Shown here one piece after another: positions 11,752-15,508 of a stretch of 64,000 nt of DNA. The DNA lies in contig CBDBHB010000008.1 of the NCBI GenBank assembly GCA_965205505.1, positions 224,001 through 288,000 on the forward strand, given 5' to 3'. Numbering within the stretch: the stretch's first letter is position 1; the number at the start of each line of letters is the position of its first letter. Position numbers and translations under genes: made by a program. The stretch is from Acidobacteriota bacterium (lineage in GTDB: Bacteria; Acidobacteriota; UBA890; WLXD01). The notes under the pieces are model-generated. The model had not been told where the DNA came from. It did not search any database and worked only from the letters and a program-made list of their open reading frames with translations.

Positions 11752-12920
11752 TCCTGACGCTCCTCTCCCATGGTCTCCCAGGCGTGACAGTGCGGACATC
11801 GCGCAAACAGCTCGGCGCTCTTGAACCGGCATTGGAAGCAGACGTACGGATCGAGCAACCGGGCATCGTCGAGCGCCTCATCCAGCAACTCTATGAACTG
11901 CTCGATTCCCTCGCCTTCGAGGCGCAGCAATTCCCATAATTGACGCTGTACCGCGAGCGACCCGGGCCGCTCGCTGAGCGCCGCGCGCAACGCCTCGCGA
12001 GCGCCGGCGAACTCCCGGCGTTCGGTCCGAACACGCGCCAACTCCAGCCACGCTCGCCAGGCGCGAGGATCCCGCTCGAGGATCGCGTTGCAGGATCTCT
12101 CGAGAACAGCCTCATCGCCGAGCACTCGACAGGCGCGCCTCAGGACGGCCATCGCCGCTAGCGCCCACGGCGGCCCGGCATGGATCGCCTGCTCGAGGTG
12201 ATCCCGAGCCGCTTCGGCGCTGCCCTGCTCGAGCAGGCATGTGGCTAGCCCGATTCGAGCCGGTGCATAGTCGGGCCGCAGGTCAAGCGCGGCTTGAAAA
12301 TGCACCGCCGCCGCCTCCGGGTCATCGGCCCCCACCGCCCTGCCCCACTCTGTCTGCAGAGCCGGGCGGAGGTCCGGTTCCGCGCCGCGCGTCATCGTCT
12401 GGATGCGCTGGTGAAAGCGCTGTGCCTCTTCCCAACGTCCACTCTCCTCGGCGATCTGCTGCAGTGCCGTCAGAGCCGCGAGGCTTTCCGGCTCGGCATC
12501 CACGACCTCCTGGAAGGTGCTGGCGGCGCGATCGATCAAGCCGGCCCGCTTGAAGTCCATCGCCAACGAGAACAGCACTTGCGTGTGCTCCCACCGGGAC
12601 TGGTTCGGCCGGTGCAGGAGACTGCGGTGAACATCGATGGCACGCTCAGTTTGCCCGCTTTCGCGCAGCAGGTTGCCAAGTGCGAGGTACGCCTCGAGAG
12701 CATCGGTCTCGTGTCGCACGGCCTGGGAGAGCTCGCGAATCGCCTGGTCCGGCTGGTGCGACACCAAGAAGTTCAGGCCGAGCAGGTAGTGAGGCCGAGC
12801 GCCGGAGCTCTGGGGCGGCACCCGCGGCATCCGGAAACGCGCCCAGAGCTCACCGAGGAGCGCGCCAAGCGACAGCAGGGCCAGCGCAGCGCCAAGCGTC
12901 AGCGGCCAGTCACCCTGCAT
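11748..12920 (-). CDS. lapB: LPS assembly protein LapB-like (TPR + rubredoxin)
   Basis: N-terminal TM, YLLGLNFL, ALGNLLRESG..RAIDVH, C-terminal CFQC..CPHC. Confidence 0.9.
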   Translation of the reverse strand: MQGDWPLTLGAALALLSLGALLGELWARFRMPRVPPQSSGARPHYLLGLNFLVSHQPDQAIRELSQAVRHETDALEAYLALGNLLRESGQTERAIDVHRSLLHRPNQSRWEHTQVLFSLAMDFKRAGLIDRAASTFQEVVDAEPESLAALTALQQIAEESGRWEEAQRFHQRIQTMTRGAEPDLRPALQTEWGRAVGADDPEAAAVHFQAALDLRPDYAPARIGLATCLLEQGSAEAARDHLEQAIHAGPPWALAAMAVLRRACRVLGDEAVLERSCNAILERDPRAWRAWLELARVRTERREFAGAREALRAALSERPGSLAVQRQLWELLRLEGEGIEQFIELLDEALDDARLLDPYVCFQCRFKSAELFARCPHCHAWETMGEERQD

Positions 12921-12953
12921 GCGTTGCTTCTCCTGGACATTGGCGCGGTCTCA

Positions 12954-13503
12954 CTAGTGGCCTGTAACAGATGATCGTTGCATATCGCAGATGGGATTTG
13001 CGGGTGAGATCAAGGCGCGGCGAGGAAGGCGATGCTAGCAGGCCGTGATGGAAGTGTGGTGGGTCTGGCAGGTGGGACTCACGGGCTAGGGCAAGGATCG
13101 ACGACGAGGCGATGTTGGAGCCATCGTCGAGGAGGAGAGACGCCGCCATCGCCCGTGACTCCCACTTGCCCTACGGGTTACGCCGCCAACGGCGCGTCTC
13201 CGGCGTTGCCGCTCCTAGACGATGCGCACGGGCATCGCCGGCGACGCGGCGCCTTGGATCTGCGCCCTTGGCGGCGTAACCAGACCCATCACACTTCCAT
13301 CACGACCTGCTGGGGCATCGTCGACGAGGCGCAACGCCGATATCGCCCGCAACTGCCCGTCTGTCCGCAGGATGGCGGCGAAATCGGCCCGTCTGCGGCG
13401 TTGCTCCTCCTCCAAGATGGGCAAACATCGTCTCGTCGTCGCGCCTGGCATCCGGACCCATTTCGCCACCACGATATGCAACGATCATCTGTTACAGGCC
13501 ACT
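12954..13503. mobile_element. MITE-A copy (inverted relative to 8631 copy), interrupted by MITE-B and cut at its terminal CT|AG by an IS110
   Basis: Near-identical to the reverse complement of 8631-8908 outside 13035-13313; the missing terminal AG is at 14906-14907. Confidence 0.92.
13035..13313. mobile_element. MITE, end type B (two-arm, about 279 bp), nested in MITE-A
   Basis: Imperfect inverted ends CTAGCAGGCCGTGATGGAAGTGTGGTGGGTCTGG / CCAGACCCATCACACTTCCATCACGACCTGCTGG; two internal hairpin arms. Confidence 0.88.
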
Positions 13504-13516
13504 TCTATGAGAAGGC

Positions 13517-13763
13517 GTAGTTCGGTCAAGGGCAATGTGGTGCCCAGCGAAGAATCGATCTGCACGCCATGCTCCTATTCGCACTCTGGTGGACGAGGAT
13601 TCAGGTCGTCCGGTGCATTCTGGGGTCCGTCCCGATTCGAGGCGCTGCAATCTAGCTGCCGAGCTCGAAGCTCGTAGTGACCTTCGCAGTCGCCCGGACC
13701 GGGCGGTCAGATCGATAACCGTTGGGTCGCGTCGCCCTACCGACCTCCTGGTTGCGGGTTAGT
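13517..13763 (-). ncRNA. Candidate bridge RNA / seekRNA region of the IS1111 element (boundaries unknown)
   Basis: Non-coding region downstream of the transposase, with a stem-internal loop at 13644-13690 whose arms match the insertion site. Confidence 0.65.
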
Positions 13764-14806
13764 TCATGCTGCTGAAACCTCTACAGGTGCGCGCAACGGT
13801 TCGTACTCGTCTCCACTCAGCCACAGTCGGTGCAGCACAACGGCGAGCTTACGGGCGACAGCAACTGCTGCCTTTTTGTTGCCATGAGGACCACCGCGTC
13901 CGGCCAGCTTGAGCCCCCAGCGTCTGAGCTCAGTATCGGGCCCGAAGGGGCCCAGGATGTAATGCGCCGAGCCCACCAACAGGCGTCGGAGCATTTTGTC
14001 GCCCGCCTTGGTTATTCGTAGCGCAGGGTCCTTGTCCCCCGACTGCCGTTTCTTCGGTCTCAGTCCCAGGTACGGGCCCACGGCTCTGGAGGTATTGAAC
14101 CGCTCCGGCTCCTCGAGCGTCAGCACATACGCCAGTGCGGTCAGAGCTCCGACCCCGGCCACTTGCTGGAGCTGCTGTGTCTCCGGGTATCGCCCCTGGC
14201 ACAGCTGCACGATCTGACGCTCGTATTGCTGGATGTTGCCCGTCAGCATGGCGATCGTTTCAAGCACCGGCTCGAGCGCTCCCTTGAGCCGCTCCGGTAT
14301 GTGCTCTGGCGCGGTGCGCGCGAACGCCGGCGTCGAGCACCTGGGAATACGACAACCGGCCGACTTGACCGCACCACGCACATGGCTCACCAACTGCGTG
14401 CAGCTCTTTACCAGAGCATCTCGGCTCCGAATCACGGCTAGATCCGCTCGCGCTTGTCTGCCTCGATGCTGCACCGTCTTAAGCAGCTTTGGGTCCATTC
14501 TGCCCACTCGTGCCAGGTGCTCGGCATCCAACCGGTCGGTCCGTGCTCGCCATAGATCAGCTTCAGCCGCCTCGGGTTAGCCACCAGCACCTCATGACCC
14601 AGTTGCTTCAACTGCTCACTCATCCACGGCGAGCGCGTTCCAACCTCCAGCACTACTCGAGCGGGCTCCTCGCACCCGAACCGCCTCGCCAGCCCCTCCG
14701 GGCTCGTCCTCACCCGCCCTTCCTCCATCACCCTGCCCTTACTGTCGAGCACGCACATACGGCTGTACCGGTCGCTTACGTCCAGTCCAATCGTTACACT
14801 TGTCAT
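13764..14806 (-). pseudogene. IS110 family (DEDD) transposase, frameshifted near 14542
   Basis: MTSVTIGLDVS..VVLEVG..VANP in one frame; TDRLDA..VAGVG..YLGLRP..QSG..ITKAG..VAVARKLA in another. Confidence 0.9.
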
Positions 14807-14908
14807 CGGCCAACCTCCTTGGGCTTCGAGCCCGTTACGTTTGAAGAAACGTTTGCAGAGCCGTCAGGCTACTGCGTTCAGGAGGTTGGCCTTCTCATCT
14901 CATCTAGC

Positions 14909-15508
14909 TCACGGCGCATCCGCATCGGCGCCGGGCGCCGCCGACTGGCGGCGAAGATAGTCTTGCAGCACGCAGCTCCAGAGATCGCGAGCGGTCACGA
15001 CGTCGTCCACCACCTCGCGCAAGGCGCCCCGTCCTCCAGCCGACGCGGTAACCCAATCAGCCACCTCAAGAATCCGAGGGTGTGCGTCGGCCACCGCAAT
15101 ACCAACACCGACGTGTCGCATCACGGCCAGATCAACCAGGTCATCCCCCAGGAAGGCTACCTGCGATGCTTCAAGCCCGAGCTGCCCCTGCATCTCCAGA
15201 CAGGCTCCGACCTTGTCGAAAGCTCCCTGCCGGAGCTCGAGCACGGGCAACTCCGAGAAACGCCGAGCGACAGCGGCCGATTCGCGTGCCGTGACCACCG
15301 CGATATGCAGATCGATAACCGTAGCGATATAGAAGGCGCTGCCATCGCGAACATGGAACGTCTTGGCTTCGCAGCCCGCTCCGGCATAGACGATCGAGCC
15401 GTCGGTCAACACGCCATCGACGTCGGTAATCAGCAAACGGAGCTCACGCAAGCGATCCTCGTACGCTTGCCTGGAGAGTCTAGTGTCCTGTAACAGACGT
15501 TCCACCAC
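14909..15508 (-). CDS. kdsC: KDO 8-phosphate phosphatase
   Basis: DVDGVLTDG, FHVRDG, GDDLVD, GGRGALREV; start uncertain. Confidence 0.92.
   Translation of the reverse strand: MVERLLQDTRLSRQAYEDRLRELRLLITDVDGVLTDGSIVYAGAGCEAKTFHVRDGSAFYIATVIDLHIAVVTARESAAVARRFSELPVLELRQGAFDKVGACLEMQGQLGLEASQVAFLGDDLVDLAVMRHVGVGIAVADAHPRILEVADWVTASAGGRGALREVVDDVVTARDLWSCVLQDYLRRQSAAPGADADAP

What the first reader, a model, noticed from the sequence alone, without database searches (positions are those of the whole stretch)
13644..13690. Candidate bridge/seekRNA target-binding loop programmed against the MITE terminus
Seen: on the transposase (minus) strand this segment reads ACUGCGAA-GGUCACUA-CGAGC-UUCGA-GCUCG-GCAGCUAGA-UUGCAGC, an outer stem, a two-armed internal loop and an inner hairpin. 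Removing the IS restores the empty site ...ACAGGCCA-CT-AGCTCACGG. Arm 1 with the adjacent A (AGGUCACUA) equals the left half plus core AGGCCACTA, with one difference that would be a G-U wobble. Arm 2 (GCAGCUAG) is the reverse complement of CTAGCT(gc), matching the core plus 4 nt of the right half. Established: IS110/IS1111 elements encode bridge/seek RNAs whose internal-loop arms pair with opposite strands of the target around a dinucleotide core (CT in IS621). Inference: the guide is programmed for AGGYCA-CT-AGCT, i.e. the CAGGCCACTAG end of MITE-A, so this is an RNA-guided recombinase that parasitises another mobile element. I could not identify the donor-binding loop.
Basis: partly seen in the sequence, partly recalled or inferred. 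Interest (0 to 1): 0.9.

Follow-up and report, generated by a model that had tools for sequence, protein, structure and literature searches.

The report
Guide RNA loop of an IS1111-type element
The stem-loop is the target-reading part of the guide RNA of an IS1111-type jumping gene, set to insert at the tip of a small repeat element; this is a real but already known kind of RNA-guided system.

Summary
Window 14903-13504 (minus strand) is a 1400-nt IS110-family element of the IS1111 type. It has a DEDD transposase (frameshifted in this copy), 10-bp subterminal inverted repeats and a 257-nt non-coding region after the gene. The genome holds 27 two-ended copies; 10 have an intact 348-aa gene and all 27 carry an identical loop. 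Nearly all flanks read nnCT-AG|IS|AG-TGGCCT.

In homologues from metagenomes (50-71% identical transposases) the stems are conserved and the two loop arms change with each element's own flanks. Arm 1 pairs with at least 6 bases of the right flank in 36 of 59 loci, against 2.6% in mismatched controls. Arm 2 does so for the left flank in 31 of 47, against 1.2%.

AUAGGAG (13578-13572) mirrors the right-end tip plus core, and this arm is identical to the tip in 60 of 63 homologues.

The target is the junction between a TA duplication within CTAG and the first bases of an IS630-like miniature element. No RNA ends or protein binding were shown. Bridge/seek RNAs of IS1111 elements, and their habit of targeting other mobile elements, are already published, so this is a new member of a known kind.

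The parts
13504..14903 (-). IS110-family, IS1111-type insertion sequence, 1400 nt in this copy
   Evidence: Junctions read. The genome holds 27 two-ended copies of 1399-1405 nt plus one of 1154 nt.
14904..14907 (-). Left flank CTAG; its last two bases AG (14905-14904) are the left copy of the core
   Evidence: 26 of 27 left junctions end in CTAG and one ends in TTAG.
13496..13503 (-). Right core AG (13503-13502) plus right flank TGGCCT; G 13502 is the first base of the repeat's inverted repeat
   Evidence: 30 of 31 right junctions read AGTGGCCT and one reads AGTGACCT.
13764..14806 (-). DEDD transposase gene, broken here by a 4-nt deletion into ORFs of 122 and 255 aa
   Evidence: PF01548 and PF02371 match. 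The intact 348-aa form sits in other copies and scores 202.8 bits on NF033542 against a cut-off of 140. Run contigs show 4 extra letters behind 14541.
14889..14898 (-). Left subterminal inverted repeat ATGAGAAGGC, preceded by the 5-nt tip ATGAG (14903-14899)
   Evidence: Sequence; conserved across homologues.
13507..13516 (-). Right subterminal inverted repeat GCCTTCTCAT, followed by the 3-nt tip AGA (13506-13504)
   Evidence: Sequence; conserved across homologues.
13565..13700 (-). Conserved bridge/seek RNA region (approximate; RNA ends not determined)
   Evidence: Alignment of 53 homologues. 95.2% of cells are paired, with 95 compensatory cells against 30 in shuffles; 0 of 500 shuffles reach this.
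13641..13695 (-). Target-binding loop with its outer stem (GGGCGACUGCG ... UGCAGCGCC)
   Evidence: 9 stem pairs, 5 with changes on both sides, 97.7% paired.
13675..13683 (-). Arm 1, AGGUCACUA: pairs with the top strand TAG-TGGCCT (core plus right flank), with one U-G wobble
   Evidence: In homologues, at least 6 contiguous pairs with their own right flank in 36 of 59, against 69 of 2636 mismatched controls.
13660..13674 (-). Inner hairpin CGAGCUUCGAGCUCG
   Evidence: A hairpin of variable length occupies this place in all aligned homologues.
13652..13659 (-). Arm 2, GCAGCUAG: same sense as the left flank plus core, so it pairs with the bottom strand
   Evidence: In homologues, at least 6 pairs in 31 of 47 against 19 of 1640 controls. 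Occupied sites are enriched for AG at -6/-5.
13650..13651 (-). AU, a possible handshake dinucleotide equal to the first two bases of the left end
   Evidence: Equal in 43 of 47 homologues, including all 7 whose left end does not start with AT. Its role is inferred by analogy with IS621 (passages).
13621..13626 (-). 5' donor arm ACCCCA, opposite the left-end tip (A)TGAG(AT); it has a C.A mismatch in this element
   Evidence: Four central columns pair in 45-53 of 53 homologues, with C-G to U-A switches. This is the weakest part of the model.
13581..13616 (-). Helix GCAC/GUGC enclosing a variable hairpin, lying between the two donor arms
   Evidence: 4 pairs are 100% paired. The inner 4 pairs all show changes on both sides.
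13572..13578 (-). 3' donor arm AUAGGAG, which mirrors the right-end tip plus core (ATAGA-AG) with one wobble
   Evidence: Identical to the element's own right-end tip in 60 of 63 homologues, through five tip variants.
13524..13529 (-). TTGACC, a -35-like box conserved as TTGACA in homologues; a possible half of a circle-junction promoter
   Evidence: Seen in the sequences. Function is inferred from published IS1111/IS110 junction promoters (passages). The consensus scan of the linear sequence found no promoter.
12957..13502 (.). Miniature inverted-repeat element (546-bp variant; the common size is 272 bp), whose end is the target
   Evidence: 34 paired copies, 20 of them about 272 bp, with flanks ...cTA and TAg....

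Best explanation
Window 14903-13504 (minus strand) is an IS1111-type member of the IS110 family. Its non-coding region after the transposase gene encodes a bridge/seek RNA of roughly 130-150 nt, and the flagged segment is that RNA's target-binding loop.

[quoted passage not shown] Together they direct insertion to CT-AG-TGGCCT. This sequence is created whenever an IS630-like miniature element with a GTGGCCTG... inverted repeat sits in its usual CTAG/TA site.

A second module, 40 nt further on, holds two donor arms on either side of a conserved GCAC/GUGC helix. ACCCCA faces the left-end tip, and AUAGGAG mirrors the right-end tip plus core. These arms would hold the joined ends of the excised circle.

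Shown here: the element's anatomy, its insertion sites, the conservation of the RNA structure, and the change of arms with flanks and with end tips. Inferred from published IS1111/IS621 work: that the RNA is made, binds the transposase and guides strand exchange at the AG core.

This copy's transposase is frameshifted, so it would depend on the intact copies elsewhere in the genome.
For: Family: PF01548 and PF02371 match. NF033542 'IS110 family RNA-guided transposase' scores 202.8 bits against a cut-off of 140. The motif GLRPKKRQSG is present. D9, E54, D92, D95 and G258 are invariant, and S257 at least 90% conserved, among 18 relatives.

IS1111 traits: 10-bp subterminal repeats; a 257-nt region after the gene against about 97 nt before it; a 348-aa protein.

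Sites: 26 of 27 left flanks read CTAG and 30 of 31 right flanks read AGTGGCCT. All 27 copies carry an identical loop.

Structure: 95.2% paired, 95 compensatory cells against 30 in shuffles, 0 of 500 shuffles as high.

Arms follow flanks: 36 of 59 against 69 of 2636 for arm 1, and 31 of 47 against 19 of 1640 for arm 2. The 36 arm-1 matches cover 35 different right-flank hexamers.

Donor arms: 60 of 63 identical to the right-end tip; the 5' arm shows C-G to U-A switches.

Within the genome: AG at -6/-5 at 5 of 30 occupied against 0 of 109 empty sites, p = 3.5e-4.

Literature: IS1111 seekRNAs lie after the gene, with the top-strand match on the 5' side (sections read). Bridge RNAs are predicted in 93% of IS1111 elements, often with donor bases in a multi-loop (passages).
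Against: There is no direct evidence that the RNA is made, where it starts or ends, or that it binds the protein. The four RNA-library runs are held only as contigs from one study, and DNA can be present in them.

The fold of the loop alone is only z = -2.5. No Rfam family matches.

12 of 59 homologues have fewer than 5 contiguous arm-1 pairs with their right flank. In several others the arm matches the flank but not the core.

The 5' donor arm of this element has a C.A mismatch to its own left-end tip. As a whole, that arm pairs only a little better than mismatched controls (5.47 against 4.83 of 7).

The homologues are related to each other and about 15 share one target, so the counts overstate independence.

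This copy's transposase is broken.
Confidence: 0.9

Rival explanations
1. The stem-loop is only a structural or terminator-like element after the transposase gene. Site choice would then come from protein-DNA recognition of the repeat's end, and the arm-to-target similarity would be coincidence.
For: The fold alone is only modestly better than shuffles (z = -2.5). All 27 genome copies are near-identical, so within this genome the arms cannot change with the sites.
Against: In homologues the arms change with the flanks while the stems stay fixed. There is no run of T after the stem, and the only terminator-like site found is at 14820-14834 on the other strand. Published IS1111 elements need this RNA (section read).
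Confidence: 0.03
2. The matches are passive footprints: pieces of target sequence captured into the non-coding region during past recombination, with no guide function.
For: Arm 2 plus the following AU reads like the left junction itself (CUAG-AU).
Against: Arm 1 is the reverse complement of the right half and arm 2 has the sense of the left half. Both sit at fixed places in a conserved scaffold in elements with 35 different targets. A footprint would not keep that two-strand geometry, nor a second module that follows the element's own end tips.
Confidence: 0.03
3. The RNA guides only excision or circle formation, or regulates the transposase, and does not select the target at insertion.
For: For ISEc11, both the donor flanks and the seekRNA had to be changed to move to a new site (section read). 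So flank-matching also matters at the donor site.
Against: The same paper shows insertion into reprogrammed targets. Here, all 5 genomic sites that read AGCTAG + TGGCCT hold the element (5 of 30 occupied against 0 of 109 empty), which fits selection at insertion.
Confidence: 0.04

Closest known systems
seekRNAs of IS1111-family elements ISEc11, ISPa11, ISKpn4 (Siddiquee et al. 2024, PMC11187229; sections 6, 8, 9, 10, 13 read)
   Same: The RNA lies in the non-coding region after the transposase gene. [quoted passage not shown] Subterminal inverted repeats are present, the transposase is 330-350 aa, and it carries a GL-P----SG motif.
   Different: The transposase is at most 37% identical to any plasmid-borne relative found, named or not. 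The scaffold sequence, target and ends are its own. Donor-matching arms are described here; I did not see them discussed in the sections of that paper that I read, and its supplements were not seen.
IS621 bridge RNA (Durrant et al. 2024, PMC11208160, and Hiraizumi et al. 2024, PMC11208158; passages read)
   Same: There are two modules, one for the target and one for the donor. [quoted passage not shown] Read on the opposite strand the core is CT, as in IS621. A 2-nt handshake-like position follows the right target guide.
   Different: The RNA lies after the gene, not before it. The donor guides flank a helix rather than lining a simple internal loop, a multi-loop form that the paper notes for many IS1111 elements. 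The 5' donor arm is short and in most members does not cover the core.
IS4321/IS5075, ISPa11/ISPpu9/ISPpu10/IS621 and the attC-targeting IS1111 members (titles in reference lists; text)
   Same: These are site-specific elements of the same family that insert into the ends of other transposons, REP elements or integron attC sites. In other words, they live on other repeated or mobile DNA.
   Different: Here the site is the junction of a TA duplication within CTAG and the tip of an IS630-like miniature element. One search listed no paper describing an IS110/IS1111 element aimed at such an element's end, but that was a listing of 12 of 581 hits, not a proof of absence.
ISAzs32 family (annotated in plasmid NC_013856.1; one of the IS1111 examples listed in a figure legend of Durrant et al.)
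   Same: An IS1111-group transposase found by tblastn.
   Different: Only 33% identical.

Membership tests
IS110 family (DEDD, RNA-guided transposase) | N-terminal DEDD/RuvC-like domain plus the C-terminal Transposase_20 domain | tested here: met
   The window ORFs match PF01548 and PF02371. The intact copy scores 202.8 bits on NF033542 against a cut-off of 140.
IS110 family (DEDD, RNA-guided transposase) | Catalytic D-E-D-D and the serine of the G--P----SG motif | tested here: met
   D9, E54, D92, D95 and G258 are invariant, and S257 at least 90% conserved, in 18 relatives. GLRPKKRQSG is present in the protein. Assignment of these residues to the IS621 catalytic residues (passage) is by position and order only, not by structure.
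IS110 family (DEDD, RNA-guided transposase) | No terminal inverted repeats or long duplication; a 2-nt core shared by the junctions | tested here: met
   AG is present at both junctions and once in the empty site.
IS1111 group | Subterminal inverted repeats of 7-17 bp with short terminal extensions | tested here: met
   ATGAGAAGGC / GCCTTCTCAT (10 bp), with tips of 5 nt on the left and 3 nt on the right.
IS1111 group | The longer non-coding region lies after the transposase gene | tested here: met
   257 nt after the gene against about 97 nt before it.
IS1111 group | Transposase of 330-350 aa | tested here: met
   348 aa in 10 copies.
Bridge/seek RNA | Conserved structured RNA in the non-coding region | tested here: met
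   17 pairs are 95.2% paired and 11 show changes on both sides; 0 of 500 shuffles are as high.
Bridge/seek RNA | Two loop arms pairing with opposite strands of the target around the core, changing with the target | tested here: met
   Seen in this element. Among homologues: 36 of 59 and 31 of 47, against 2.6% and 1.2% in controls.
Bridge/seek RNA | Donor-binding arms matching the element's own ends | tested here: met
   The 3' arm equals the right-end tip plus core in 60 of 63. The 5' arm is supported only in part, and this element has a C.A mismatch.
Bridge/seek RNA | The RNA is transcribed, processed and bound by the transposase | not testable with these tools
   Contigs from four RNA libraries of one study contain the region, but contigs cannot show a transcript.
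Bridge/seek RNA | Changing the arms changes the insertion site | not testable with these tools
   Only natural variation among homologues could be examined.
Rfam families | Match to a curated covariance model | tested here: not met
   The only hit in 12500-15500 was a chance-level gntR-DTE match (17.6 bits against a gathering score of 63.6).
IS630-derived miniature element (the target) | Short, multi-copy, with terminal inverted repeats and a TA duplication within CTAG | tested here: met
   34 paired copies, 20 of about 272 bp, with flanks cTA...TAg. An IS630-family element in the genome has a similar end, CTA-GTGTCCTGAGTCAG. TA within CTAG as the IS630 site comes from a reference title and passages. 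Absence of a gene inside the element was not tested.

The most novel reading that the evidence does not exclude
This lineage has hundreds of metagenomic members and no named relative above 37% identity in the plasmid collection. It may use a variant bridge-RNA geometry in which the two donor guides flank a conserved helix in a branched junction. The 5' donor guide is only 4-6 nt and skips the core, so the subterminal repeats and the protein would share donor recognition. The target guide reads a duplication-plus-repeat-tip junction, so only integrated copies of an IS630-like miniature element are recognised. That would be a hyperparasite that follows another element's spread. The family also offers at least 35 naturally reprogrammed guide-target pairs on one scaffold.
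Probability: 0.35. Interest if true: 0.5.

Novelty: new member of a known kind. Interest (0 to 1): 0.38.

Why it matters
It shows that a reader working from sequence alone can correctly pick out a guide loop. It also adds a well-populated, unnamed IS1111 lineage with a clear scaffold and many natural guide-target pairs. The lineage includes a legible donor module, which is less well described for IS1111 than for IS621. Such series help in learning the rules of arm length, core pairing and handshake bases. Biologically, it documents one mobile element using the insertion scar and tip of another as its landing pad, filling about a fifth of such sites in this genome. It does not change the current picture of RNA-guided recombinases.

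Tried and rejected
Rfam gave no family. The promoter scan of the linear sequence found nothing, and the only terminator-like site lies on the other strand at 14820-14834.

The genome-contig scan gave one distant locus (L031, 43% identical). The 'order' search covered only 26 genomes and added nothing beyond. In the four same-genus genomes searched, no copy was found with this protein query.

An alternative hairpin just upstream (columns 14-18 with 25-29) is not supported: 68.8% paired, no better than shuffles.

My first test required pairing to run unbroken from the core. It undercounted, because many arms match the flank but not the core; one search replaces it. A regex error mis-read the 3' donor arm in about 20 loci, which uses alignment columns, replaces it.

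The right-flank clustering was too crude to count distinct targets.

RNA evidence: contigs of runs X1-X4 (one study) contain the element, but they cannot show transcription, strand, ends or level. Parts without cover and the depth differences there mean nothing.

Supplements of the papers were not seen; the supplementary figures of PMC11187229 and the extended data of PMC11208160 may already show donor-matching bases for IS1111 RNAs. No structure or complex prediction was run, because none was needed.

Full report
**1. The observation.** Folded alone, 13695-13640 gives an outer stem, a two-armed internal loop and an inner hairpin. The energy is -24.8 kcal/mol with z = -2.5, and 3 of 200 shuffles fold as well. 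The whole 261-nt region after the gene gives z = -2.6. The fold by itself is therefore weak evidence. Rfam has no match.

**2. The element.**
- The ORFs at 14806-14441 and 14531-13767 (minus strand) carry PF01548 and PF02371.
- The junctions are gagCTAG|ATGAG-ATGAGAAGGCC... and ...GCCTTCTCAT-AGA|AGTGGCCTGT. The element therefore runs 14903-13504, with 10-bp subterminal repeats, an AG core on both sides and 257 nt after the gene.
- The genome has 27 copies with both ends. Ten are 1404-1405 nt with an intact 348-aa gene. Eight, including the window copy, are 1400 nt with the same longest ORF.
- The intact protein scores 202.8 bits on NF033542, 'IS110 family RNA-guided transposase', against a cut-off of 140. 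It contains GLRPKKRQSG.
- D9, E54, D92, D95 and G258 are invariant among 18 relatives, and S257 is at least 90% conserved.
- These traits fit the IS1111 group as defined in PMC11187229 (section 6) and in PMC11208160 (passages).

**3. Insertion sites in the genome.**
- 26 of 27 left flanks end in CTAG (one ends in TTAG). 30 of 31 right flanks begin AGTGGCCT.
- The exception, AGTGACCT, is a perfect rather than wobble match to arm 1.
- Further out, the right flanks belong to several repeat families and to a few non-repeat sequences.
- All 27 copies carry an identical loop, so this genome alone cannot show that arms follow sites.

**4. Homologues.**
- A protein search found thousands of relatives, the best 120 listed being 59-100% identical.
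- A scan of metagenome contigs returned 80 loci with transposases 50-71% identical.
- Their ends are conserved: flank-AG-ATG[A/G]G-ATGAGAAGGCC at the left and GGCCTTCTCAT-GGA (or AGA, GGC, GGG, AAG)-AG-flank at the right. Their flanks differ widely.
- The region after the gene shares one scaffold..CCGGGCGACUGCG-[arm 1]-hairpin-[arm 2 ending in AG]-AU-UGCAGCGCC..linker..GGAyCyCAn-nn-UGCACCG-hairpin-..AGAGUGCGr-AUrGAAG-C..
- On 53 sequences, the outer stem of the first module, the GCAC/GUGC helix and its inner hairpin are 95.2% paired. There are 95 compensatory cells against 30 in shuffles, and 0 of 500 shuffles reach this.

**5. Arms follow flanks.**
- Arm 1 lies just after GACUGCG. Arm 2 lies just before the 2 nt that precede UGCAGC.
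- Arm 1 forms at least 6 contiguous pairs with its own right flank in 36 of 59 loci, against 69 of 2636 (2.6%) when loci are matched with unrelated flanks.
- Arm 2 forms at least 6 pairs with its own left flank plus core in 31 of 47 loci, against 19 of 1640 (1.2%).
- The 36 arm-1 matches involve 35 different right-flank hexamers.
- 12 of 59 loci have fewer than 5 pairs. In several others the arm matches the flank but not the core.
- The loci are related to each other, and about 15 share one target.
- The arm order, with the complement of the top strand on the 5' side, is the one reported for IS1111 seekRNAs (section 9).

**6. Within-genome test of arm 2.**
- The genome has 109 empty CTAGTGGCCT sites and 30 occupied ones.
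- AG at -6/-5, which extends the match to AGCUAG, occurs at 5 of 30 occupied and 0 of 109 empty sites (p = 3.5e-4).
- CA at -6/-5 occurs at 1 of 30 occupied and 41 of 109 empty sites (p = 1e-4).
- Arm 2 thus seems to read about 6 nt, with CTAG required.

**7. The donor module.**
- The 7 nt after AGUGCGr are identical to the element's own right-end tip plus core in 60 of 63 homologues. This holds across five variants: ATGGAAG 46, ATAGAAG 10, ATGGGAG 2, ATGGCAG 1 and ATAAGAG 1.
- The window element has AUAGGAG against ATAGAAG, which is one wobble.
- The segment GGAyCyCAn before UGCAC faces the left-end tip. Its four central columns pair in 45-53 of 53 loci, with C-G to U-A switches, for example ATGAG/AUCUCAU, ATGGG/AUCCCAU and TAGGG/CCCUA.
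- The gain over mismatched controls is small, however (5.47 against 4.83 of 7), and the window element has a C.A mismatch.
- The two donor arms flank a helix instead of lining a simple loop. This fits the remark in PMC11208160 that many IS1111 RNAs carry donor-binding bases in a multi-loop.
- The 2 nt after arm 2 equal the first 2 nt of the left end in 43 of 47 loci, including all 7 whose left end does not start with AT. They resemble the handshake guides of IS621.

**8. The target.**
- The repeat at 12957-13502 is a 546-bp variant of a family whose usual size is 272 bp. There are 34 paired copies, 20 of about 272 bp, and their flanks read ...cTA and TAg....
- This is the TA-within-CTAG pattern of IS630-type elements (reference title and passages in PMC2170065).
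- The genome has IS630-family transposases, and one has the end CTA-GTGTCCTGAGTCAG.
- The recognised CT-AG-TGGCCT is therefore duplication plus repeat tip, and the core's G is the first base of the repeat.

**9. Expression.** Contigs from four metatranscriptome libraries of one study contain the element, including the region after the gene. They show 4 extra letters behind 14541, where the window copy has its deletion. Contigs cannot show a transcript.

**10. Comparison and verdict.**
- Bridge/seek RNAs of IS1111 elements are published. So are family members that target transposon ends, REP sequences and attC sites (references seen; text).
- The nearest plasmid-borne relatives are at most 37% identical; the ISAzs32 family is 33% identical.
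- The finding is real and correctly read, and it is a new member of a known kind.

Noticed in passing
window 12957-13502; genome-wide copies: A family of miniature inverted-repeat elements, usually 272 bp, has flanks ...caCTA and TAGtg.... This means a TA duplication in a palindromic CACTAGTG-like site. The window copy is a 546-bp variant.
   Followed up: partly
L154 (G000:C9:2197049-2200954): An IS630-family element ends in CTA-GTGTCCTGAGTCAG. This is one base different from the repeat tips that the guide reads, so it is a possible relative of their mobiliser, but it would mismatch arm 1.
   Followed up: partly
window 13529-13524 (minus strand): TTGACC (TTGACA in most homologues) lies 18 nt before GAAGAT in the joined ends. 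This could be a promoter formed only in the excised circle, as published for this family. It was not tested, and the scan of the linear DNA found no promoter.
   Followed up: partly
window about 14541; genome copies: Eight copies at different places share the 1400-nt length and the same truncated ORF. Four more share 1403 nt and a 161-aa ORF. This suggests that defective copies spread using transposase from intact ones. Base-level identity of the deletions was not checked.
   Followed up: partly
window 13651-13650 (minus strand): The dinucleotide after arm 2 equals the first two bases of the left end in 43 of 47 homologues, so it looks like a handshake guide.
   Followed up: yes
G000:C9, copy whose left end is at scan position 2702237: This copy has an extra ATGAG between CTAG and the left end, a tandem repeat of the 5-nt tip.
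   Followed up: no
L041 and L033 (G011:C1:3908161-3911885): A genome of the same order holds a 62-68% identical transposase split by about 2.7 kb. Its region after the gene has the same scaffold with different arms.
   Followed up: partly
genome-wide: 41 of 109 empty CTAGTGGCCT sites are preceded by CA, but only 1 of 30 occupied sites is. Either arm 2 disfavours these sites, or abutting palindromic repeat ends are poor targets.
   Followed up: partly
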